This document shows, piece after piece, positions 18,521 to 49,032 of a DNA stretch of 64,000 nt. Position 1 is the stretch's first letter. The number at the start of each line of letters is the position of its first letter. Made by a program: the position numbers and the translations under genes. Source of the stretch: Andalucia godoyi And28 (lineage: Eukaryota > Protista > Jakobida). The notes under the pieces are model-generated. The model was not told the origin of the DNA. It did not search any database and worked only from the letters and a program-made list of their open reading frames with translations. The stretch spans positions 179,403 through 243,402 of the forward strand of contig VRVR01000020.1 of NCBI GenBank assembly GCA_009859145.1. The letters are read 5' to 3'.

Positions 18521-18593
18521 GAGGCGTTAGCTCAGTTGGTAGAGTAGCGGTCTCCAAAACCGTTGGTCGGGGGTTCGATCCCCTCACGCCTCA
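18521..18593 (+). tRNA. trnW: tRNA-Trp (CCA), intronless
   Basis: Cloverleaf: acceptor GAGGCGT/ACGCCTC, D arm GCTC-AGTTGGTA-GAGT, anticodon arm GCGGT-CTCCAAA-ACCGT, T arm GGGGG-TTCGATC-CCCTC, discriminator A. Followed by TTTTT (Pol III terminator) at 18594-18598. Confidence 0.95.
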
Positions 18594-18952
18594 TTTTTGC
18601 CTTTTTTTAATCCATTTATTTTTCCTTCAATGTCTTCCGCGCGTGCCTCACTTGATGCATCTCTCTTCACGCTCTCTTTGATCATCTTCCTCCTCTTTTT
18701 TGGGAGTGAATTGAATACGAGTTTTCTGGTTCTTGTGCAAAGTACACAAACCCAAATAATAGAAAATAGAAAAAGGAAAATAGAAAATAGAAAAAAGAAA
18801 AAAGGCCACATCACAACAGTAATCAAAACGAAAAAGAAGACACGTAAGCAAAGAAGGGAGAGAGGTGGAATAGAAAGAAGAACAAAAGTCGGCAAGATAG
18901 CACATTCAAAAGGAAAGCAAGAAAAACAAGAAAGAAAAAAAGAGGAGGGAAA

Positions 18953-20335
18953 ATGAGCACAAAAGTGGACAAGATTCCGTCGTCTGCGTTTGATGTTGAG
19001 CTTTATGCTTCTCAGTATACGGGCCGTGGTCTTGTTCTCCGGTTGGAGTATCTAGCGCGTCAGACGACCGATCCAGCGGTACGAATGGGTGCGTTACAGC
19101 TTGCCATCAAGGCGTGTTGCGTGGACTTTGAGCTTCTGGACACCAGGTGCTACAAAGAGCTGTATGATGTCCTGAGAAGCTCAGCATCCAGCATCCACAG
19201 AGAGTCTGTGTCAATGATTTCAAGCAGTCCCAGACTGGCGCTGTTTACAAACTCGTTCAACCAAAGTTGGGTTGATGCGACCGATCGAAAGTTCAAGGAC
19301 CGGTCCGATGCTTTGAACGCGCAGCTGGTCCAATGCAAGGCGAATACGATTCGTGAATCAACGCGTGCTACCCTGTGCGATCTCTCAGAGCTGTTCTTTT
19401 CGCGAGGTGATCTGGATATGGCACTTTCACATTCTATTGGCTCGAAAGACTACTGCACGACCTCAAAGCATGTGTCAGACATGTGCATTTCCGTGATTGT
19501 CGCTGCCTTTTTGCACAAACAGTATGCTTTGGTGCTGAATTACGCACAGCGCGCCGAGCAAACACCCAACTTTGAGTCTGACAAGGTGTTGCTGAGCAAG
19601 GTCAAGGTCGCCTGTGGACTGGCGCTGATGAAATCGCACCGACTGAAGGATGCAGTCGTGAAATTCACGGAATGCTCTCCGGAAATGGGAGACTCATTCA
19701 ACCAGATTGTTACAATGGCAGATGTTGGGCGCTATGCCGCACTATGCGGGTTGGCTGCCCTGAATCGACAGGAGCTGAACTCGATTGTTCGGTCCAATAT
19801 TGGGTTCAAAGACTTCTTGGATGCTGCTCCGGAATGTCGAGACGCATTGAATGCATTTTACGTGTCTAATTTCTCCAAATGTTTCGCATTGCTTGACGGA
19901 ATAGCCGCGGATCTGGCAGGCGACTACATGATTGGGGAGCTTATTTCCGGGTTGCTGACATCGATACGGCAGCGCGCGCTGCTGCAATACACAGTTCCGT
20001 ACGAAACTCTGTTTATTGAGAAAATGGCAAACGTTTTCCAGTCGTCGAACGCGATGATCATTGATTCTTTATCTGAGCTGATTCGAACCGGTCAGATTTC
20101 AGCACGAATCGACCTCGAACGGCTTATTTTAGTCAAGCGAACGGTGGTGCAGAAGGACCAGAATCTCAAAGATGCGCTCAAACTAGAAGAAGAACTGAGA
20201 GACACGATCGTACTTGCTGCGCGCAGAAGGGAACTAGAGAACGCCGGCATTTGTGTCGTCGATCCTCGGAAAGAATCTGTCGCGGGCACGGAAGCAAGGG
20301 CATCTGCCGATTTCTATAGTGCTCGTGACTTTTAG
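18953..20335 (+). CDS. CSN1: COP9 signalosome subunit 1 (GPS1)
   Basis: FDVELYASQYTGRGLVLRL, WVDATDRK, KANTIRESTR, SKDYCTTSKH, YAALCGLAALNRQEL, and a PCI domain (IRQRALLQY..QISARID). Confidence 0.93.
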   Translation: MSTKVDKIPSSAFDVELYASQYTGRGLVLRLEYLARQTTDPAVRMGALQLAIKACCVDFELLDTRCYKELYDVLRSSASSIHRESVSMISSSPRLALFTNSFNQSWVDATDRKFKDRSDALNAQLVQCKANTIRESTRATLCDLSELFFSRGDLDMALSHSIGSKDYCTTSKHVSDMCISVIVAAFLHKQYALVLNYAQRAEQTPNFESDKVLLSKVKVACGLALMKSHRLKDAVVKFTECSPEMGDSFNQIVTMADVGRYAALCGLAALNRQELNSIVRSNIGFKDFLDAAPECRDALNAFYVSNFSKCFALLDGIAADLAGDYMIGELISGLLTSIRQRALLQYTVPYETLFIEKMANVFQSSNAMIIDSLSELIRTGQISARIDLERLILVKRTVVQKDQNLKDALKLEEELRDTIVLAARRRELENAGICVVDPRKESVAGTEARASADFYSARDF

Positions 20336-20479
20336 AAGCCGGAGATGCCTTTTCCGCAGTATTTTTGTGCCTTTTCTTCTATACATTATTCTACTCTATT
20401 CTTTTGGATTGCACCGTATCGCACTGAATGGTCTTGAGCTTGTGTACATGAATTTGTGGTAGCGCGGTTGACCTCTGCG

Positions 20480-20582
20480 CCTACATTATGCACTGAACAT
20501 GCATATCTACGAATAGGCATGCATATTCAGTCTTGCATCCCGTTGCCGGGAAGGGGACAGGCCCCAACACGCCTCACGGCGC
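20480..20582 (-). ncRNA. Putative Fanzor omegaRNA scaffold, copy 1
   Basis: Hairpins GCGCC-GTGA-GGCGT, GGGG-CCTGT-CCCC and TCCCG-GCAA-CGGGA, plus a 13-bp stem ACTGAATATGCAT/ATGCATGTTCAGT capped by CTA-TTCG-TAG. Loop CCUGU is complementary to the terminal GUAGG. Position overlaps and follows the RuvC-III codons. Confidence 0.65.
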
Positions 20583-21060
20583 TCTTCAGATAAATGTTCC
20601 GCGCTCCGTTCCAATCTCGATCAATCGGTGAGCCACTTTCTCAGCGTGACGCGTTGTTCCTGAGAAGGGTGCATTTTGATTCTGACGGCCCTAGCAGCAG
20701 GCGCTTTCGTGTCCTCAGTTGCAGCGCGATTGATGCACCTGGAGATACGAGAGGAAGAGGCGGCAGGAAGACGGTGGGGTTTTGCGACTGCGACTGCGAC
20801 TGCGCCTGGTGCATCGTAGCAGAAAACCAAGAGTTCTGCAAGAGACGGTCCCTGAGGCTTCTGCTTCGGGTTGGCTGCCCTGCGTGCTGGGGAGTGGAGA
20901 TCGTGCCTTGGAAGTTCGCCTCTTGGCAGTGCGCTGAACGAATGATAGATGGCTACGCGTAAGCACGAATTCCCTGTGAAACAAACGTGCTAGTGTCGGC
21001 CAGTATTGACCGTGTCTGTTTATGGATACTTTTCCGTATGCATGACAATGACGTGTCATT
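20480..21060 (-). mobile_element. Internally deleted Fanzor2/TnpB (IS607-type) element, copy 1
   Basis: The minus strand encodes an SWFS motif (20832-20821) and the TnpB N-terminal motif RAVRIKMHPSQEQRVTLRKWL (20692-20630). These abut, out of frame, the RuvC-III motif IDRDWNGARNIYLK (20625-20584), followed by a structured right end terminating in GTAGG at 20480. The left boundary is approximate. Confidence 0.8.
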
Positions 21061-21142
21061 ATTCAACGGTGTGCAATTTTTTATTTTAATAATATTATTT
21101 TTAATTTTAATTTTTTTTTTTGTGGGTATGGCGACGCGCTGC

Positions 21143-22596
21143 TTACTCTGGTTTCCCGAAGACCAGCGAGACGTTAACGCCCCCGAAGCCAAATGAGTTT
21201 TTGAGGATGTTCCGCAACGGACGATGTCGAGCTTCCTGCGTTGCAAACGGCAAGTTCACAACAGGATCCAAGTCGACCAAGTTTAGAGTAGGTGGCACAA
21301 GATCGGTCGACAGCGACAACACACAAGCGACAGATTCCGCTCCCCCTGATGCACCGAGCATGTGCCCGAGAGCTCCCTTCAACGATGACACGAGTGGCTT
21401 TGCAGTTCGAGATTCATTTGCGAACAGCTTTTCGAGGTTCCTCGCTTCTACCGCATCACCGGCAGGCGTCGACGTTGCATGGGCATTCACGTAATCCACT
21501 GAACCGGAAGAAATACTTGCCTGTCTCAAAGCATCTGCCATGCACCGATAGCTCGAAGGGCCGTTGGGCTTTGTGATGTGATGCGCATCGCAAGTCGCAG
21601 CATACCCTTTGATCTCTGCCAGAATTTCTGCGCCCCGTGCCTTTGCCCTTTCGTATTCCTCAAGCACGAGAATGCCTGCACCCTCGCTCATCACAAACCC
21701 GTCGCGATTCTTGTCAAAGGGCCGTGATGCCTTTTCTGGTTCGTCGTTGTACTTTGTGGATAGAGCCTGCGCACGGCAAAACCCAGCGAAGGACACAGGC
21801 TCCGTTGCCGCTTCCGTTCCTCCACAAATCATGATATCTGCCATCCCCAGTCGAATGAAGTTGTACGAGTCTCCAATGGAATTCGCAGCGGATGCGCATG
21901 CTGTCGACACGGCATGGCACGGACCTTCCAAACCGTATCGAATGGCAACGTGACCAGCAGCCAGGTTAATCAGCATCTTTGGAATAAAATACGGAGATAT
22001 CCTTCCATATCTCTATAGTGACCGGCTCTTCGTTAGTGAGTTTTAGATCCATCCATTCATCCCGCACACGCACACACGAAGGGCCACAAAAAGAAGAATA
22101 CCGCAACAAACATACTTGGTTTGCCAGAATGTCAGAATTCGCGACAATTTCACCGATACCACCAATTCCAGATGCAATGGAAACCCCGGTTCTCTGTCTC
22201 AATCCTTCGTCTGTACGAAAATCATGTTCCACAAAACCTGCGCTTGCCACGGCCTCTGTCGCAGCGACCATGGCAAACTGGATAAACGGCGCCATCATTC
22301 TTTCGTCCTAATCGCAACAAGCCAAGACAAGTAAGCAAAAGCAAACATATCAGTATGTGAAAAGAGTCACCGCCATTCTCAACAAAACATACAATGTATG
22401 AATAACTGGATGGATTGAAGCCGAACTGGCCTTGTCGTGGAACGGATCCAGCAATCTTGCTCGGGAATTTGGAGCAGTCGAACGCACGAAGAGCCGTAAT
22501 TCCGCTCTGTCCGTCTTTCAGCTTTTGCCAAAACACATGTCTCCCAACTCCAAATGGTGACACACATCCAAGTCCAGTCACCACCACTCTTCTCAT
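21143..22596 (-). CDS. OXSM: 3-oxoacyl-ACP synthase II (mitochondrial KAS, FabF/OXSM), 3 exons
   Basis: MRRVVVTGLG start; introns 22392-22308 and 22115-22013; catalytic motifs VSTACASAANSIG, NAHATSTPAGD, GHMLGASG, KNSFGFGG. Confidence 0.93.
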
Positions 22597-22985
22597 CTCC
22601 CTCTCCTCTGGTCCTCTTCGTCCTCTGCCTTCCGCCTTCCCCACCCTGGAGGCTGTGGAATCGAAAGCTCTGAAGAACAAAGAAAAACAGCAATCGTCTT
22701 CGCCTTACGTACCGCAGTTTGGACACGGACTACGATCGGTGTTGCTTCATAGAGAAGAAAGCGCGAATCGGGATCTTTCTCATGCTGGACACTTCGAAGC
22801 ACAACACAGACCACTCGGAAACTCCATATTGCGTTTCTTCTTCATCTTACTTTTTCTTTTTATTTTCTGAAAACGTTTTTCTTGTTTCTCTGACATACGA
22901 GAGGAAAGAAGGGGGGAATAACAAAGGAAAAACAAATTTCACCGCTGATCGTGTGATCTGTCTTTCGCAGAGTTGAAATTTTTTC

Positions 22986-24029
22986 ATGGATTTCAAAAGA
23001 AGTGCTTTGAACGAGCATTTTGTGTCGACGGCAAATGCGCTGGCTGTTCTGTATCGGAAGGCTGTAGTGGTGGAGCGCGAAGGAATTTCACAAGGGATAA
23101 GCTATGCACTTTCGCGACTTTCGCAAGTGTCGTTGAACGGGTCAAAAGGGCTTTCTGCTGAAGAAGTGCGATATTTAATGGAGGAGCTGCAAAAGGAAGC
23201 GAGGATTTCTTCCGAGTCCGTGTTTGGAGACGCGCCGTCGCAGTCGTCGGGGAGTACAGGGTCCGTCATACAGCCTTCCAACTCATTATCATTACCATTG
23301 GCATTGCCATCGTCGTCATCATCTGCGTCTTCGCCTGGCGCGTCCTCTGGCGCATCATCTGCGTCCTCTGCGTCGCTTGCTGTTTCGACGAACGGTAGCG
23401 GTCATAATTCTAATCTCCACCCTCATCCTCACCCTCATCCTCACCCTCATCCTCACCATCATCCTCACCATCATCATCCTCACCATCATCATCACAACAA
23501 TCACAATGGCAATGGCAACACAAATCATAGTAACAATAACCACAGCAACAGTCACGGTCAAAATAATATGAATCGTATTGGTGGCGGTAGTGTTAGTAGT
23601 AGTATTAATAGTAATAGTAGTAATAGTAGTAATAGTAGCGGTGCTAGCGGTGCTAGTGGTGCTGAGGACGGTGGTATTAGCACGATTGAGAGTGTTAGTT
23701 CTGGGAATGTACATATGGGAAATCCACACCAATCCGTGCAATATGGATATCCACAGACGTTGCCGTTTGGAAGTTCCGGCCAGCCGTTTCAGGATCCGCT
23801 GTCCTCGTCCAACTCGTTTTCGCAGCAAGTGCACTATCATCAACAGATGCAGCAGACGCAACCGACGCAGCAGATGCAGCAGGGAATGAATGATGTTTTT
23901 GGAAACACATTTACGAGTAATCCTGCGCAGTTTGGATTTCCAATCAAGAGAAGACCGGAAGAAGACTTTGTGATGATGGACCAAGGAACCCCCCATCCCT
24001 TCTACGTGAAACGAGGAAGGTTTGGTTAA
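22986..24029 (+). CDS. HAPSTR1/C16orf72-like protein with His/Asn/Ser low-complexity tract
   Basis: N-terminal HFVSTANALAVLYRK..GISYALSRL resembles the F..AAN.L..LY....G...ALE.L motif of HAPSTR1-family proteins. Basic C-terminus (YVKRGRF). Confidence 0.55.
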   Translation: MDFKRSALNEHFVSTANALAVLYRKAVVVEREGISQGISYALSRLSQVSLNGSKGLSAEEVRYLMEELQKEARISSESVFGDAPSQSSGSTGSVIQPSNSLSLPLALPSSSSSASSPGASSGASSASSASLAVSTNGSGHNSNLHPHPHPHPHPHPHHHPHHHHPHHHHHNNHNGNGNTNHSNNNHSNSHGQNNMNRIGGGSVSSSINSNSSNSSNSSGASGASGAEDGGISTIESVSSGNVHMGNPHQSVQYGYPQTLPFGSSGQPFQDPLSSSNSFSQQVHYHQQMQQTQPTQQMQQGMNDVFGNTFTSNPAQFGFPIKRRPEEDFVMMDQGTPHPFYVKRGRFG

Positions 24030-24633
24030 CACACAACTGTTCCAGTTCCATTCCGTGTCTTTTTCTTTTCTTTTTCCGCTGTCTATTATTACTATCTTCA
24101 ACTGTAATGGTAACTTTTTAAACTTTCTTTAAAAGAAATGGAGAGAATAAGACGGAAAAATGCTGAGCCGCATGTCCAAGCCGTCATCATCTTTTGCTTC
24201 CCTTTAACTATGATCGTTATTCATCTCTTTCTTTCCTGAAAAATGTTCAAATGACAGATGCTTTTTTCACTTGCTGTAGTCGGACACAGAATTTCTTGAG
24301 GAGACACTCCCTCCCACTCAAGTCTTTTCGGACTGGAGGTTTCTCAGTGATTCCTCAGAACCCCACTAGGATGTCAGACGACGACGATGATGTTGTTGTC
24401 CAGTGTTTTCGTTCGACCTTTTCGCTTCCCTTCTTTTTCCTTCCAGATGACATTTCTTTTTTCTTTTTCTTCTTCTTCTTCTTCTTCTTCTTCTTCTTTT
24501 CGTTGTTTGGTTTACACACAATTATAATTGGAGTTGTTATACTTATACTTATAGTTATAGTTATAGTGGTTATATCTCCGAGTCTTCTGCTACTGTGGAC
24601 CACGATAGACAGACGGTTGAAGCTTGGAGAGAT

Positions 24634-27384
24634 ATGATTTCTGCACAAGATGCTGGTCAAGGCTTGGCAGTGGCAGTGGCAGGTGCCCAGAGTCCTGTTC
24701 AGGCACCTCGAGTGACTGTGGCTTTACAATCAACTCCAGGTTCTCCTTCCACAACCCAATTTTCTAGTTTTGCAGCACCGCTACTTGCGTCTGTCCAGAC
24801 TGCACATCGGCGGTTTCTTTCCTCTCTTGTTGGATCCTCCACGCTTGCAGACTGCCGATTCAAGCTTGTGTCGTCCAACGATCCGTCGGCTTCAGCTTCG
24901 GCTTCGTCGCATGGTGGTGCTGCAGCTGCGTTTGGATCGCCGCCATCTGTTCGTGGAAGTAGAAATGCGCAATTGCCAAAGTCCGCTGGGCCCGACGGAG
25001 TTGCGCATGACGAAGTAATTATCCCGGCGCATCGAGTGCTGCTTTCACAATACACGTTTTTTGCATCCCTGTTCTCTGGTGATTTTGCAGATTCAACTGA
25101 TCCGGAAATTGTGTTGGATGCAGATGCGGTGGATAAGAATCTGCTGCTTTCTGCGCTGGAATTTATATACACCGGCTGGACGAACATTACGCATTCGAAT
25201 GCGTACCCATTGTATGCATTGGCGGAGCAGTTGACAATCACTGCGCTTCAGGACGTTACGCTTGCATTTATGAATTGCTGCTGTTCTGTATCAGATCTTC
25301 TCAGTTTGCTTTCGCATCGCGTCAGCAGCAGAGGAGAAATGTCGGGCGAGTCCTCGCAGCTTGTTCGGACGTGCTTGGAGAACCTTGGGCAGCGACCGCG
25401 ATCGCTGTTTCAATGCCCAGAGTTTCTGCAGCTTCCGCCTCTTGCAATGAGAAGCTTGCTGATGGGCGACACCCTGGGGAAAGTACGCGAAGAGGAAATC
25501 TTGGAAGCCGTGTCCTCCTGGGCCCGTGTTCTGTTGGATCGCGAAGGTCGGACTGCCTGCGAATCTGCGTTGGCCGAGGTTGCGCCGTACATTCGGTGGG
25601 CCTGGATTCCAAAATCGAAGCTGTTTATGATCGGAAGGGAATGGACCGAACACCCGTTCGTTGTTCCGGGATTCCGGGAGATTCATCACAAGGCTCTGAT
25701 GCTCGTTATGCAACGGGATCAGCTGCAGCTGCCTTTTGACATGTCACTTCTTGCCCTTTCTGGCAATTCTCCAGAGTATTTATTTCCGCGAAAGAGACCT
25801 CGTCTGCAAAAGAAGGGATTCAGCGCAAGTCCGACGAGTCCTAATGGTGATCTACATGGGTCGTCTCCTATTCCAAGTAATCAGTTTTTCTTGCCTGCAG
25901 GCATGCCAGCCGCAACTTCTGTTTTGCAGCAAAGTCGCGTTCCTTCACCTCCTATTCTAACGCAGCAACTGCGCTTCCGCCTGCCGAGCAGGAGCACGTG
26001 CGTTGCAGTGGATGGCGACCGCATTTACACAGGCCATGTGGACCGCGAAATTCACGTATGGGATCTACGAACGGGAGACTTGATTCGGACACTCGCCTTC
26101 CATTCTGAACTGATTGTCTGCTTGGATGCACGCGACGGACTTTTGGTGTCTGGTGCGCGAGACAATCACGTCATGTTGTGGGATGCGTCGGTTGGCACTG
26201 GAAACTCCATTTCTCCGCTTCCAAATGCTCCCCCCTCGTTCCTTCTCCGGCTTGAGGGCCACGAACAGTCTGTGTATGGGGTTGTCTTGGCTCCGTGGCT
26301 CGGTTGCATCTATTCGTGCTCCCGTGACCGCACTGTTCGAAAGTGGAACTATTGGCTGACGCTTCCGAATGGCGCAACTGTTCATTCCAAAGCGCAAACT
26401 GGAACTGGCTCCGAGTCCCGCATTGTCGGTGCGCGTTCGTCTCCTGCTGGATCCGTGGACATCCCGTCTTCTGCATTGTCCGTGACACTCGGAGACAATT
26501 CGATGTTGTACGTTGCCTGTGGAGATGGAAATATCCGCATTGTTGATGGTCGTACCATGGTTTCGATCGCGGTCTTGGGCGTTAATCATACGACAACGAT
26601 GCGATGCGTACATTTTTGTGGCCCGATGATTGTCACGGAACCTGCGGAATGGGAACCCGTGCCCTCTGCTGCAAACCCTCGTGCTGGTGTATCAGACGGC
26701 ATTCCGCCGACCGTTACTTCTGTTCGTCGCGTCCGACGTCGGTTGCTGGTCGCTGGCGCTACGGATGGCACTGTATTCTTCTATGACTGCGAGAGGCATC
26801 AACTCTTGTGGCGATCTCGCCGCCATACCTCAAAGGTATTTGCGCTGGCACATTCCACCACTCACAACGTTATTGTCTCGTCTTCAGAGGACATGCACGC
26901 ATGCGTCTGGAATCCGGATCTTTCCGACGTCGGCGGTCCTTCTGGCCTACGAGATCGTGCAGAGGTTGACATTGACGAAGATCCGTTATTACAAATTGAT
27001 GATACGCCACCAATGTACGCCGGCTTTCCTTCAACAGCTGGAATTCCAGGGATGCCCGTGGCTGCAAGTGCTGCCCATCCACCGGGTTCACTTCTCGAAG
27101 TGTTGCCGCCTCTTCCGATCGTCCCCGTTCCGATTTCTGCATCTGTAATCATCCAAAATAATCTTGCTAACGATGCCGCCAACAACAATGTCGCTCCTGT
27201 TCCACCGAACAACGGCGCGAACAATGCCGATGCGGCGGTCATTGTTCCGTCCTTGGATGGCCACTTGGACACGCTTCGCGTTCACCAAGACTGGGTGACC
27301 GGCGTCGCTGCTTTGGACCGTGTGATCGTTACGTGCTCTAGAGACGAATCCGTTGTTGCTTTCCGCTTTACCGAACAGCGGTAA
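24634..27384 (+). CDS. BTB/POZ + BACK + WD40-repeat protein
   Basis: ADCRFKLV..IPAHRVLLSQYTFFASLFSGDFADS..ALEFIYTG (BTB); EFLQLP..EEEILEAVSSWA..IRW (BACK); WD repeats GHVDREIHVWD, GHEQSVYGV, HQDWVTGV. ATG at 24634. Confidence 0.85.
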   Translation: MISAQDAGQGLAVAVAGAQSPVQAPRVTVALQSTPGSPSTTQFSSFAAPLLASVQTAHRRFLSSLVGSSTLADCRFKLVSSNDPSASASASSHGGAAAAFGSPPSVRGSRNAQLPKSAGPDGVAHDEVIIPAHRVLLSQYTFFASLFSGDFADSTDPEIVLDADAVDKNLLLSALEFIYTGWTNITHSNAYPLYALAEQLTITALQDVTLAFMNCCCSVSDLLSLLSHRVSSRGEMSGESSQLVRTCLENLGQRPRSLFQCPEFLQLPPLAMRSLLMGDTLGKVREEEILEAVSSWARVLLDREGRTACESALAEVAPYIRWAWIPKSKLFMIGREWTEHPFVVPGFREIHHKALMLVMQRDQLQLPFDMSLLALSGNSPEYLFPRKRPRLQKKGFSASPTSPNGDLHGSSPIPSNQFFLPAGMPAATSVLQQSRVPSPPILTQQLRFRLPSRSTCVAVDGDRIYTGHVDREIHVWDLRTGDLIRTLAFHSELIVCLDARDGLLVSGARDNHVMLWDASVGTGNSISPLPNAPPSFLLRLEGHEQSVYGVVLAPWLGCIYSCSRDRTVRKWNYWLTLPNGATVHSKAQTGTGSESRIVGARSSPAGSVDIPSSALSVTLGDNSMLYVACGDGNIRIVDGRTMVSIAVLGVNHTTTMRCVHFCGPMIVTEPAEWEPVPSAANPRAGVSDGIPPTVTSVRRVRRRLLVAGATDGTVFFYDCERHQLLWRSRRHTSKVFALAHSTTHNVIVSSSEDMHACVWNPDLSDVGGPSGLRDRAEVDIDEDPLLQIDDTPPMYAGFPSTAGIPGMPVAASAAHPPGSLLEVLPPLPIVPVPISASVIIQNNLANDAANNNVAPVPPNNGANNADAAVIVPSLDGHLDTLRVHQDWVTGVAALDRVIVTCSRDESVVAFRFTEQR

Positions 27385-27862
27385 TCCATGGACATTCGTC
27401 ACATTTTTCTCTTGTTTTTTAAGCCGAGTTTGCGTTTTTTCGTTTCCTATGCTTCCGATGTGTCGTCATTTGTTCATGTTTGTATGGTTAAGAACGCGGT
27501 TTCAACATTTGGGGGAAACTTGTTCCCTCCCCTTGTTGTCTCTTTCTTTTATTATGGTAACGTGAAGCTTGTAAAGCCCTTCCAGCTGTCTGGATATGAC
27601 CGAACTCAACAACTCCACTATGGCCAGTACGCAGAAGCACCTCGGACACCAACCAGCGTCGCGCCTCCATCTTCCGTCGCTGCCACTTATTGCCATCTGA
27701 TGAATCAATCTAAAGCGCACGCAAACAAAAACACGCCGCCGCATTGCATTCTCGCACAGCGACGCTCATTTCATTTCATTAGTTTTATTGTCCATGCAAC
27801 GCACCATGTCCGTCACGCCCGCAACGCTGCGCAACACCCATGACAATCTCCACCGCCACCTT

Positions 27863-28211
27863 CCGGCGCTGGATCCCGGGGTGCGCACTTTTGCAACTGG
27901 TTATGCCCCTTCGGGTCGCATGAGCGAGGTCGGCGCAAAGGATGCTTCGTGCATTTATCGGCTGTGTCTGTCTGCCGACAAACTGTCTTCGAAGATCGCC
28001 AAGGTGTTTTGTTGCCCATCGTGCAAATGCACGGTCGACCGCGATTGGAACGGCGCGCGCAGCATCTACATCTATCTTAGGAATGTCTCTCATGCCGAGG
28101 GGCGTGTTCGGGGTCTAGCCCCCTTCTCGATCATGCTGTGCATGTTGTTGGGTTGCAGCATTGATTATGGGTGATCAGCGATGATTATCCGTGGTTAGTG
28201 TACAACGTAGG
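27863..28211 (+). mobile_element. Internally deleted Fanzor2/TnpB element, copy 2 (RuvC-I + Zn-ribbon/RuvC-III + right end)
   Basis: ALDPGVRTFATGYAPSGR..IYRLCLSADKLSSKI joins in frame to KVFCCPSCKCTVDRDWNGARSIY. Ends in AGTGTACAACGTAGG (28211), homologous to the copy-1 end. The left boundary is unknown. Confidence 0.85.
28085..28211 (+). ncRNA. Putative Fanzor omegaRNA scaffold, copy 2
   Basis: Hairpins GTCTCT/AGGGGC, GGGG-TCTAG-CCCC, ATCATGCTG/CAGCATTGAT, and a 13-bp TTATGGGTGATCA-GCGA-TGATTATCCGTGG stem (GNRA loop). Loop UCUA pairs with the terminal UAGG. Confidence 0.65.
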
Positions 28212-29025
28212 CGCTGACAATAGTCGACCAATCGTTTCATTAGTGAGTTTTCTCTTATTTTTGTTTTGGACTTCGTTGTTTCGATTTTTGAAAGGTTGCG
28301 TTTGGTTTTGACAGAATCGAACAATGAGAAGAGAGAAATGTTGAACTTCATTGCGATTATGGAAGTGCTGTTTCCTTTTCTTCAACGATTCTCATCTGGG
28401 ATCGCGTTCTTGTCGATCGTTTGCACGTTCGTCGTCCTGTACTTCAAGAGAGAACAGCCAATCTTGCTGCCTGTGAGAAGGATCCAGCCGCACGTCTTCC
28501 GTCGTTCTCGAACGTCGCACTTGCATGCTCATTCTGTCGGTTTCAGGCAATCAGGTGCGCTTTCATCGTGATTTGCTTCAAAAGAATTGCATTGCCATTT
28601 ATATCTTATTTTGCTGAATATCGCGTGCATGTTGTTCAGCCACTTTTCGTTTTGTCGAGGACTTCCCATTGTACATTCCTCCCCTCGGCCTTTCTCCCGT
28701 CTGAAGTGTTGCTGATTTGTGCCCCAACGCTCCTCGTGGGTGATGATCATCGCAGGAAAAATACTTGTTTTAATGTTTCTGTTTGTTTTGTTTTTTATTG
28801 TGCTGCTGTTGTTCCACTTGAATGCTCGATTTCAAGTTCAAATGCAAGCAGTCCTTTCTTGTTTTTTTTTTTAAAATTGCGGGGTTGTTGTTGTATACAA
28901 AAGTTGCAACGAACAGGAAAACGAGGTTTCGGCTGTCCTTCGTCCAGGAGCTCTGCGACTGCGTTGTCGGGAATCCTCCAAAATGAAAGAGGGTTGGCTT
29001 CGAATTTTCGTTGGGACTGTGCAGA

Positions 29026-32205: not shown

Positions 32206-32571
32206 TTCCACAAAAGGAGCGTGATAATTCAACAAACCAAAAAAGAAGAAGACGAAGAAGAAGTAGCAGTAGACCAACAATCAAGTGCGAATCACTCACC
32301 TTTTTTCTTTTCAAAAAAATTTGTTATAAATAAATAAATATTTAAATATTTAAAAATAAGTGAACATGACAAAATGAATGCTGAGACAAGGATGAACGAA
32401 CGAAATTTTAAAAACAGAGGCGACTTCGGATATTTATTCTGTTTGATGCCTCCTTTCTTTCGTTCAAGTTGCAGGAAAAATGCCGCTTTGCCAGACGGGA
32501 GGACGTACCTCGTACGTACGTGCAAAGTGCGTCAAGGTGCGAGCACCAGAACAAGCAGCAGGCCAGGAATA

Positions 32572-33091
32572 AGGCGCTTCCATAAAAATTCAATTCGGAA
32601 AGCCCTGCATTTCCTCAAGCCTTTCTTCTTTCCCCCTTTCCGTTTCTCTCGTTTCACCTTGGACTTCGTCGTGTCAAATAAAATATTGAATAAAACACTG
32701 CTGCGTTCGTATTTTGATATTTCACCGTTTTTATTTGGCACCACATCCTCCTCACACTTCGCCACACGTTATCGGGTTTGTCGGCTTCGTCGGCTTCATA
32801 CTTGCACATCTTCGGAATCCGATGGTGTAGGCGGTGAAAGCTGCGCTCCAAGAGCGGCTGCGCCCTCCCGATCTGCACGATGCCCTCCCGATCTGCACGA
32901 TGCCCTCCTGAGTTGGGTGAACGATTTGTCGTTCATCACGTGTGTGCCGGAATCCACGCGGTATTCCCAGTGCAAGCGAGCTGGAGTCCTCGCGTGAGGC
33001 ACTCATGAACGATTGAAAATGTCTGGTTCTGCCGGACATTTCACGCCTCTCGCTCCTGGAACCCCTTGCGTTCATTTAAATGGGTGTGCCT
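32572..33091. mobile_element. ~520-bp MITE-like element, copy A
   Basis: Inverted near-copy of 48235-48762. Flanked by TA (32570-71 and 33092-93). Imperfect TIRs AGGCGCTTCCATAAAAATTCA versus the reverse complement of the other end, AGGCACACCCATTTAAATGAA. Internal ~20-bp tandem duplication (GGAGGGCATCGTGCAGATCG on - strand). Confidence 0.8.
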
Positions 33092-33216
33092 TAATAATCG
33101 GGGACAGAAGAAGAAAGAAGAACAAGAACAACAGTGGCAATGGAGCATGAGGATAAAGGTGGTTTAAATTAACAAGACGACGTTTTGGAAGAACCAGACT
33201 TGGACAGCTCCGTTGC

Positions 33217-48108: not shown

Positions 48109-48234
48109 TCTCGCCTTCACTCTAACCGGTGATCGTGCGCTTCTCAACACCAAACCCGTGAAACGCTCTCCTTTCGTGTCCTCTCTTTTAAGTGCTCTCT
48201 CCGTGCATTGCGCATCGTGTTGAGGTTCTCCTTA

Positions 48235-48762
48235 GGGCACACCCATTTAAATGAACGCAAGGGGTTCCAGGAGCGAGAGGCGTGAAATGTCCGGCAGAAC
48301 CAGACATTTTCAATCGTTCATGAGTGCCTCACGCGAGGACTCCAGCTCGCTTGCACTGGGAATACCGCGTGGATTCCGGCACACACGTGATGAACGACAA
48401 ATCGTTCACCCAACTCAGGAGGGCAATCGTGCAGATCGGGATGGCGCAGCCGCTGTCGGAGCGCAACTTTCATCACCTGCACCATCGGGTTCTGAAAATG
48501 TGCAAGTATGAAACCGACGGAGCAGACAAACCCGACAACGTGTGGCGAAGTGTGAGGAGGATGTGGTGCCAAATAAAAACGGTGAAATATCAAAATACGA
48601 ACGCAGCAGTGTTTTATTCAATATTTTATTTGACACAACGAAGTCCAAGGTGAAACGAGAGAAACGGAAAGGGGGAAAAGAGAGAAGCGGAAAGGGGGGG
48701 GGAAAGAAGAAAGGCTTGAAGAAATGCTGGGCTTTCCGAATTGAATTTTTATGGAAGCGCCG
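48235..48762. mobile_element. ~528-bp MITE-like element, copy B
   Basis: Inverted relative to 32572-33091. Flanked by TA (48233-34 and 48763-64); ends are GGGCACACCC...GGAAGCGCCG. Confidence 0.8.
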
Positions 48763-49032
48763 TAACTGTGTGCAACGAGGACTGATGCTTGGAGCTTGAT
48801 GCTACAGGAATCCATTATTTATGTATTTTTTCGCTCAATTTTTTTTTAAATAGACTTTTCAGTCTTTAGGCTTTTGGTGTTGCGTTTCTTTAATCAGCCA
48901 TTTTTGTATTTGTGATTTTTCTTCTTTTGTTCGTTTTGTTTTGTTTTTGTTTTCCTTCTTGGACATATTACGTCACTACACGCACACAGAGTTACAAGTT
49001 GCAAGTCGCAGGAAAGTGAAAATCGAATCGTC

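What the first reader, a model, noticed from the sequence alone, without database searches (positions are those of the whole stretch)
20480..28226. Two divergent Fanzor2 remnants share a conserved omegaRNA fold with a covarying pseudoknot: candidate guide-RNA-only cassettes
Seen in sequence: the two right ends (20582-20480 on -, 28085-28211 on +) share only short primary motifs, GGCGTGTT(C)GGGG-N5-CCCCTT and AGTGYAYAAYGTAGG. Their architecture is the same: a hairpin over the last codons, a GGGG/CCCC stem with a 5-nt loop, two further hairpins, and a terminal GUAGG. The GGGG/CCCC loop can pair with the terminal UAGG in both copies (CCUG in copy 1, UCUA in copy 2; C-G to U-G and G-U to A-U changes). 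Several hairpins carry stable tetraloops (GUGA, GCAA, UUCG in copy 1; GCGA in copy 2). The 13-bp terminal stems differ in sequence between copies but are fully paired in each. Established knowledge: TnpB/Fanzor omegaRNAs overlap the ORF 3' end and right end, close with a pseudoknot, and take their guide from the flank just outside the element. Inference: the nuclease is destroyed in both copies while the RNA module keeps its pairing, suggesting non-autonomous guide cassettes acting in trans with an intact Fanzor elsewhere. Predicted guides start CGCAGAGGTCAACCG (20479 downward) and CGCTGACAATAGTCG (28212 upward). Each cassette is co-oriented downstream of a host gene (KAS; BTB-WD40), so read-through could express it.
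Basis: partly seen in the sequence, partly recalled or inferred. Interest (0 to 1): 0.9.

Follow-up and report, generated by a model that had tools for sequence, protein, structure and literature searches.

The report
Gutted Fanzor2 transposons keep guide-RNA ends
Two short leftovers of RNA-guided Fanzor2 transposons in a protist genome have lost most of their nuclease gene but kept their folded guide-RNA ends, most likely because they broke recently and inherited the fold from active ancestors, which is ordinary for this kind of element.

Summary
Both remnants are real. They are internally deleted IS607-type Fanzor2 elements. Copy 1 joins the HTH piece to RuvC-III. Copy 2 joins a likely TnpA start, RuvC-I (DPG) and the end of the zinc finger with RuvC-III. 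Both right ends fold (z -3.5, -3.7) and share an 18-bp stem with real compensatory changes.

The pseudoknot changes are one-sided, and it looks weaker than in relatives (18 of 20 perfect). It is 6 bp, and the ends most likely run to GTAGGCG, so both predicted guides start 2 nt later. The coding scraps have lost only 3 of 50 conserved residues (about 3% per base), while the two RNA ends differ by about 40%. So the covariation likely arose in active ancestors, and the intact pairing fits neutral decay.

No genome or RNA data were available. No intact nuclease from this host was found among predicted proteins; the only sibling is a truncated Andalucia godoyi protein. Guide-only 'ghost' loci and their proposed action in trans are already published. 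Verdict: new members of a known kind; a trans-acting guide is possible (about 15%) but unshown.

The parts
20702..20960 (-). Copy 1: frameshifted remains of the Fanzor2 N-terminal extension (NSWF motif at 20835 downward); 5' limit and left end not determined
   Evidence: An NSWF-like motif is in 22 of 142 long relatives, so this assignment is weak
20630..20701 (-). Copy 1: HTH_OrfB_IS605 piece (P0010 residues 36-59, 71% identical)
   Evidence: tblastn E 2e-6; Pfam E 0.05
20545..20625 (-). Copy 1: RuvC-III motif and C-terminal tail (P0010 399-425, 85% identical), in another frame; about 340 codons between HTH and RuvC-III are deleted
   Evidence: tblastn E 7e-10
20478..20582 (-). Copy 1: predicted omegaRNA scaffold / right end. 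Hairpin 20582-20569, pseudoknot hairpin 20565-20554, GCAA hairpin, 18-bp stem 20531-20492, pseudoknot strand 20484-20479, last G 20478
   Evidence: register inferred from relatives
20458..20477 (-). Copy 1: predicted guide (host flank), starting CAGAGGTCAACC
   Evidence: Inferred from the corrected end; no other close match in the window
27806..27872 (+). Copy 2: likely start of IS607 TnpA (MerR-type HTH), broken by a 1-nt frameshift near 27845; joined to the nuclease piece through a shared 7-mer
   Evidence: Rank 2 of 2263 background peptides on a TnpA HTH profile. Sibling P0001 has the same start and a TnpA C-terminal piece (E 0.0013 among 14 sequences). A whole-TnpA profile gave no significant hit on copy 2 itself
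27866..28000 (+). Copy 2: RuvC-I (DPG) and bridge helix (P0010 224-268, 71%; P0001 91%)
28001..28069 (+). Copy 2: second half of the zinc finger and RuvC-III, fused in frame. RuvC-II glutamate region (P0010 269-387) deleted; conserved Asn changed to Ser
   Evidence: Pfam Cas12f1-like_TNB E 3.6e-5
28080..28213 (+). Copy 2: predicted omegaRNA scaffold / right end. Hairpin 28080-28109, pseudoknot hairpin 28110-28121, 18-bp stem 28160-28199, pseudoknot strand 28207-28212, last G 28213
   Evidence: Folds on the sense strand only (z -3.67 vs -0.14)
28214..28233 (+). Copy 2: predicted guide (host flank), starting CTGACAATAGTC
   Evidence: Inferred from the corrected end; no other close match in the window
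21143..22012 (-). Host beta-ketoacyl synthase (last exon), upstream of and co-oriented with copy 1
   Evidence: Pfam E 6e-35
24451..27384 (+). Host BTB-BACK-WD40 gene, upstream of and co-oriented with copy 2
   Evidence: Pfam BTB, BACK, WD40

Best explanation
These are two internally deleted IS607-type Fanzor2 transposons from two subfamilies, whose right ends still carry a predicted omegaRNA fold that was likely inherited from active ancestors and is likely now decaying without a job. In the ancestors the right end was presumably transcribed with the flank and guided Fanzor2 to cut the empty site, and TnpA presumably moved the element (established for the family, inferred here). Large deletions then removed the nuclease core and spared the 3' end (shown). 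They probably arose by incomplete copying or microhomology-mediated joining (inferred from one 7-nt overlap). Little time has passed since, so the RNA pairing has hardly been eroded. The element end is predicted to be GTAGGCG, which implies a CG core dinucleotide rather than the usual GG.
For: The best match of all four coding scraps among the fetched full-length proteins is one intact 437-aa DPG + alternative-Glu protein family, P0010 (71-85%). Its best solved relative is mimivirus Fanzor2 9B0L (E 4e-26). Only 3 of 50 conserved residues are changed in the scraps (2 of 40 with the smaller alignment, 2-3% per base), against about 40% difference between the RNA ends. Simulated neutral decay of 2-4% breaks 0.8-2.3 pairs per end, with P(at most 1) 0.31-0.80. 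Two G-U pairs of the long stem are shared by both copies, so they predate the split. Elements with open nuclease frames have the same hairpin-loop-pseudoknot design (L003, L004, L057, 6 WC pairs). The window's pseudoknots are imperfect where 18 of 20 relatives have 5 perfect pairs. A second truncated family member exists (P0001).
Against: Copy 2 has 16 G-U pairs among 52, more than any of 26 relative-end folds (at most 8 of 38). Its long stem has no mismatch and it folds only on the sense strand, so selection on the RNA was strong in its lineage and its end date is not fixed. The decay estimate rests on few sites (95% upper limits 11-14% per base), and at 10% decay the intact pairing would be unlikely (P 0.02-0.08). 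Copy 2 and P0001 share an Arg-to-Cys change at a 72% conserved site, which could mean descent from an already dead master copy that was still being copied. The two guides match at 9 of 20 positions (weak).
Confidence: 0.72

Rival explanations
1. Ghost/PATE-like cassettes: non-autonomous copies whose omegaRNA is still made and loaded by an intact Fanzor2 encoded elsewhere. The guide would direct cutting of the empty allele so that the cassette is copied back (homing in trans), and TnpA would move it in trans.
For: Both copies keep the whole scaffold. Copy 2 folds strand-specifically with many G-U pairs and no mismatch in its long stem. Shared derived changes with P0001. Precedent: ghost omegaRNAs work with SpuFz1 (PMC10432273), and PATE elements carry omegaRNAs (PMC10055086).
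Against: The pseudoknot, essential for IS607 TnpB activity (PMC10690162; section heading in PMC10711439), is weakened in both copies and has a G-G mismatch in copy 2. No full-length Andalucia-labelled Fanzor2 appeared in three protein searches (best 120 of 884 listed in 84); this is weak, as unannotated or unassembled copies are invisible. The two copies are not near-identical as a multiplying ghost family would be, and no third copy is in the window. Preserved pairing is explained by youth alone.
Confidence: 0.17
2. The RNA ends are host-domesticated structures, either a small RNA or a 3'-UTR/terminator element of the upstream gene, kept without any Fanzor protein.
For: Each lies 0.7-0.8 kb downstream of a co-oriented host gene. 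Copy 2 is strand-specific.
Against: Co-orientation has about 1-in-4 odds by chance. A/T-rich tracts lie between each host stop codon and the remnant. The coding scraps are young, which leaves little time for domestication. No Rfam match.
Confidence: 0.05
3. The stems are kept as DNA features for TnpA recognition of the right end, and the copies are mobile non-autonomous elements with no RNA role.
For: The 3' 17 nt (AGTGYAYAAYGTAGGCG) are the best-conserved part. Copy 2 begins with a likely TnpA start, so its left end should be close.
Against: G-U pairs and sense-strand-only folding point to RNA-level, not DNA-level, selection. IS607 TnpA acts on double-stranded DNA (PMC10711439). No left end could be defined.
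Confidence: 0.06

Closest known systems
IS607-type Fanzor2 elements (ApmFz2/ISvMimi, NlovFz2; Bao & Jurka PMC3627910, Yoon PMC10711439, Schargel PMC11832414)
   Same: DPG RuvC-I, HTH_OrfB_IS605, C4 finger plus RD motif, a TnpA fragment, and a right-end RNA overlapping the last codons and closed by a pseudoknot next to the guide
   Different: Nuclease core deleted in both copies. The predicted core dinucleotide is CG rather than GG; NlovFz2's TAM is CCG, a possible parallel that was not tested
Spu-1 'ghost' loci of Spizellomyces punctatus (Saito 2023, PMC10432273)
   Same: No functional Fanzor ORF, omegaRNA region retained, action in trans proposed. The Extended Data Fig. [quoted passage not shown]
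   Different: Spu-1 ghosts are Fanzor1, 134 conserved copies with inverted repeats, and shown to work as scaffolds. The window's copies are two unlike Fanzor2 deletion products that keep coding scraps; their function is untested
PATE-like IS200/IS605 mini-elements of Geobacillus (Meers 2023, PMC10055086)
   Same: Transposon ends plus omegaRNA without proteins, proposed to be used in trans
   Different: Bacterial IS605 with HUH TnpA and single-stranded DNA hairpin ends; here IS607, eukaryotic, left ends not defined
P0010 family (unnamed JGI/IMG 437-aa protein) and P0001 (EukProt ANDGO_03800, Andalucia godoyi)
   Same: Closest intact relative (71-85% over the scraps) and closest truncated sibling (91% over RuvC-I)
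   Different: P0010's DNA could not be fetched. P0001 has different deletions and a TnpA C-terminal piece

Membership tests
Fanzor2 / pro-Fanzor nuclease | DPG motif in RuvC-I | tested here: met
   Copy 2 ALDPGVR at 27866; the region is deleted in copy 1
Fanzor2 / pro-Fanzor nuclease | RuvC-II glutamate six residues before the zinc finger (Ealt; PMC10711439) | not testable with these tools
   The segment is deleted in both copies. It is present in the closest relative P0010 and, with DPG, in 133 of 141 full-length relatives (the regex allowed 5 or 6 residues)
Fanzor2 / pro-Fanzor nuclease | C4 zinc finger followed by the RD motif | tested here: inconclusive
   Copy 2 has the second CxxC and RD; copy 1 has RD only
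Fanzor2 / pro-Fanzor nuclease | Intact nuclease ORF | tested here: not met
   P0010 residues about 60-398 are missing in copy 1; 1-223 and 269-387 in copy 2
Fanzor2 / pro-Fanzor nuclease | Resides in a eukaryotic genome | tested here: met
   Flanked by PCI-domain, KAS and BTB-BACK-WD40 genes; sibling protein annotated from a jakobid
IS607 element | Serine-recombinase TnpA upstream of the nuclease | tested here: inconclusive
   A 22-residue HTH-like start in copy 2 ranks 2 of 2263; C-terminal piece in P0001; nothing in copy 1; no catalytic domain
IS607 element | Matching core dinucleotide at both ends, no TIR/TSD | tested here: inconclusive
   Right end predicted as CG in both copies. Left ends not defined. 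A 10-bp direct repeat flanks copy 2 at a distance (chance about 2%)
TnpB/Fanzor2 omegaRNA | Stem-loops overlapping the ORF end and right end | tested here: met
TnpB/Fanzor2 omegaRNA | Pseudoknot between an upstream loop and the scaffold 3' end | tested here: inconclusive
   Pairing is possible in the family register, but with 2 G-U pairs (copy 1) or 1 G-U and a G-G mismatch (copy 2); 18 of 20 relatives are perfect
TnpB/Fanzor2 omegaRNA | Expressed and bound by the nuclease | not testable with these tools
   No reads or genome available
Ghost / PATE-like guide-only cassette | Multi-copy family with conserved ends and varied flanks | tested here: inconclusive
   No third copy in 64 kb; rest of the genome unavailable
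Ghost / PATE-like guide-only cassette | Intact cognate nuclease in the same genome | tested here: inconclusive
   None among predicted proteins; genome not searchable

The most novel reading that the evidence does not exclude
Copy 2 belongs to a nuclease-dead IS607/Fanzor2 lineage in a jakobid-type protist that has been copied for a long time under selection on its RNA alone. It would still be transcribed and would supply a guide in trans to an intact Fanzor2 with a CG-type end and TAM, making it a Fanzor2 ghost system whose native trans action can be tested in a small gene-dense genome.
Probability: 0.13. Interest if true: 0.6.

Novelty: new member of a known kind. Interest (0 to 1): 0.27.

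Why it matters
The modest value is this. It records IS607-type Fanzor2 remnants related to a jakobid protein, a group that my two paper searches (Fanzor + Andalucia, Fanzor + jakobid) and two supplement searches did not link to Fanzors. It also gives a predicted scaffold of about 105-135 nt and a CG end for an uncharacterised intact relative, P0010. If the RNAs proved to be expressed and loaded by an intact nuclease, this would test the published but unproven idea that guide-only loci act in trans in their native eukaryotic host.

Tried and rejected
No genome is held for this window. No sequencing run was listed and no RNA holder was listed; this says nothing on expression. Three look-ups of earlier findings returned nothing. 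Rfam gave no relevant match.

P0010's own DNA was not among the metagenome, viral or GTDB loci returned. So its loop (CCTAC) is only inferred from the residues GAYP and from similar tails in relatives.

A covariance model from the two ends found no third copy in the window, only the antisense of copy 1. It also found no significant hit in 92 relative loci, so this two-sequence model does not reach the relatives. The pseudoknot descriptor is unspecific by itself (8 hits vs a mean of 6.6) and fitted only 15 of 71 distinct relative ends.

Guide 12-mers have chance-level matches in the window. CG + guide 18-mers gave 2 and 1 exact matches in viral contigs; these were not inspected and are not used.

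A conserved-guide idea (both flanks start CGCWGA, P about 0.005) mostly dissolves once CG is counted as element end. The left ends could not be defined: similarity of the upstream regions was borderline (5% of random pairs score as well). The search of 50% representatives never ran, so that view is missing.
Full report
OBSERVATION. The window is a gene-dense eukaryotic sequence; no genome is held for it. Both remnants exist. Against the closest intact relative found, P0010 (437 aa, unnamed JGI/IMG protein), copy 1 keeps residues 36-59 (71%) and 399-425 (85%) in different frames. Copy 2 keeps 224-268 (71%) fused in frame to 388-410 (74%). AGTGYAYAAYGTAGG occurs twice in the window; the longer motif as written matches copy 1 only. 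Both ends fold better than shuffles (z -3.51, -3.67). Copy 2 does so only on the sense strand (antisense z -0.14); copy 1 folds on both (antisense -3.07).

FAMILY. P0010 has DPG and the alternative glutamate that PMC10711439 gives as the Fanzor fingerprint, as do 133 of 141 full-length relatives. Its best solved relative is mimivirus Fanzor2 9B0L. Copy 2 is 89-91% identical to P0001, a 190-aa EukProt protein from Andalucia godoyi. I infer the window comes from that species or a close relative; I did not confirm this. P0001 carries a TnpA C-terminal piece (E 0.0013 among 14 sequences). Copy 2 starts like P0001, and its first 22 residues read through one frameshift rank 2 of 2263 background peptides on a TnpA HTH profile (1492 were scored; the top one lies in an unrelated host ORF). 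The whole-TnpA profile gave no significant hit on either copy. The TnpA frame and the nuclease frame overlap in a 7-mer at the junction, which suggests microhomology joining; this is inference from one junction.

THE END AND THE GUIDES. Comparing copies among fetched loci, several families end sharply after GG, 111-137 nt past the RD codon, with unrelated flanks. I folded 20 ends: 17 set from those comparisons and three (L044, L060, L076) by motif analogy; L012 was dropped for lack of an end. In 18 of 20 the best 5-mer partner was perfectly Watson-Crick and paired with the five bases before the last two. L099 shows a two-sided change against its family. By arithmetic, a perfect 5-mer somewhere in such a search has about 20% odds per sequence, but not at one fixed offset across seven groups. 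Relatives with the same GGG-N6-CCC hairpin extend the rule: loop position 1 faces the second-last base (A:T in L003, L054, L057; G:C in L004; C:G in L071, L076; A-G in eight others), followed by G. That G was demanded by the descriptor, only 15 of 71 ends fitted, and the ends of L003, L004, L054 and L057 are not independently fixed. L004 ends CTAGGCG. PMC10711439 shows the right-flanking base is scaffold in IS607. A third shared C leaves a 3-nt shift possible.

COVARIATION AND ITS AGE. The long stems align without gaps. Of 18 pairs, 9 are unchanged (2 of them G-U in both), 4 change on one side, 4 change on both sides with pairing kept, and 1 is a mismatch in copy 1 but paired in copy 2. Fourteen random changes keep 18 of 18 pairs with P 8e-5. 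So selection on RNA pairing is real. The pseudoknot changes are not compensatory: the 3' strand is identical, and the loops give 4 WC + 2 GU and 4 WC + 1 GU + G-G. Protein tails of relatives (GAYP, GSYP, GPTP, GLAP) suggest an ancestral CCTAC or CCTAG loop, from which C-to-T and A-to-G transitions automatically give G-U. The RNA ends differ at 26 of 66 positions, but the coding scraps lost 0 of 14 and 3 of 36 conserved residues, about 3% per base (95% upper limits 14% and 11% with the smaller alignment). Neutral decay of 2-4% predicts 0.8-2.3 broken pairs per end; about one is seen in each. The compensatory changes therefore most likely arose in nuclease-bearing ancestors, and intact pairing needs no later selection.

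AGAINST MY READING. Copy 2 has 16 G-U pairs among 52, above all 26 relative-end folds (at most 8 of 38; the six are more A+T-rich, 18-41% G+C). At 10% decay its pairing would be unlikely (P 0.017). It shares R252C with P0001. The guides match at 9 of 20 positions, and a 10-bp direct repeat lies 22 nt before its ATG and 21 nt after its end (chance about 2%). None of these is decisive.

TRANS PARTNER AND EXPRESSION. Three protein searches found no full-length Andalucia-labelled Fanzor2. In one search the next relative after P0010 is 55% identical, and only the best 120 of 884 were listed. PMC7050145 says transposon-rich subtelomeric scaffolds were left out of the main assembly of that species, so absence is weak. 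No third copy is in the window. Expression could not be examined.

MECHANISM. Shown: deletions, retained 3' ends, fold, compensatory changes, low point decay. From literature: IS607 TnpA excises and inserts at a dinucleotide, TnpB with its omegaRNA cuts empty sites, and the pseudoknot is required (PMC10690162). Inferred: two subfamilies were once active here, lost their cores by deletion, and now decay; the end is CG-type.

COMPARISON. Guide-only loci are known: 134 Spu-1 ghosts, whose RNAs function and were proposed to act in trans (PMC10432273), and PATE-like elements (PMC10055086). Fanzor2 in IS607 elements dates from PMC3627910. Searches for Fanzor + Andalucia and Fanzor + jakobid found no paper. 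Supplement searches of PMC10530073 (2 files) and PMC10432273 (9 files, one unreadable) found no such names. One search found nothing relevant. Subscription papers and preprint supplements were not visible.

WHAT I SAW OF EACH PAPER. Passages only for PMC10432273, PMC11832414, PMC10055086, PMC3627910, PMC10530073, PMC10690162 and PMC7050145; passages plus section 25 for PMC10711439. That incomplete gap repair yields end-retaining deletion copies, and the copia-protease resemblance noted in passing, are recalled and come from no call.

VERDICT. Real feature, new member of a known kind, interest 0.27.

Noticed in passing
window 32570-33094 and 48232-48764: A dispersed repeat of about 530 bp, two copies in opposite orientation, 93-99% alike. 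One frame reads WEYRVDSGTHVMND, which recalls a copia-type protease motif (from memory); Pfam gave nothing significant.
   Followed up: partly
window 27774-27783 and 28235-28244: A 10-bp direct repeat brackets copy 2 together with exactly 21 nt of flank, about one guide length. Chance is about 2%. It could be a target duplication from re-insertion of element plus guide.
   Followed up: partly
window 27806-28174: Despite the deletions, copy 2 is one open frame of 122 codons from the ATG, so a small nuclease-dead protein could be made.
   Followed up: no
L003 3719-3811, L004 3789-3909, L054 2985-3071, L057 3600-3805, L071, L076: In viral-contig Fanzor2 ends, the first loop base covaries with the second-last base of the element (ends TG, CG, GG), suggesting the pseudoknot tracks the core dinucleotide.
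   Followed up: partly
window 18521-18593: tRNA-Trp(CCA) gene, just upstream of a PCI/RPN7-domain gene at 18848-20335 that converges on copy 1.
   Followed up: no
window 22977-24029: A 350-codon ORF with His/Asn/Ser-rich stretches and no confident Pfam match.
   Followed up: no
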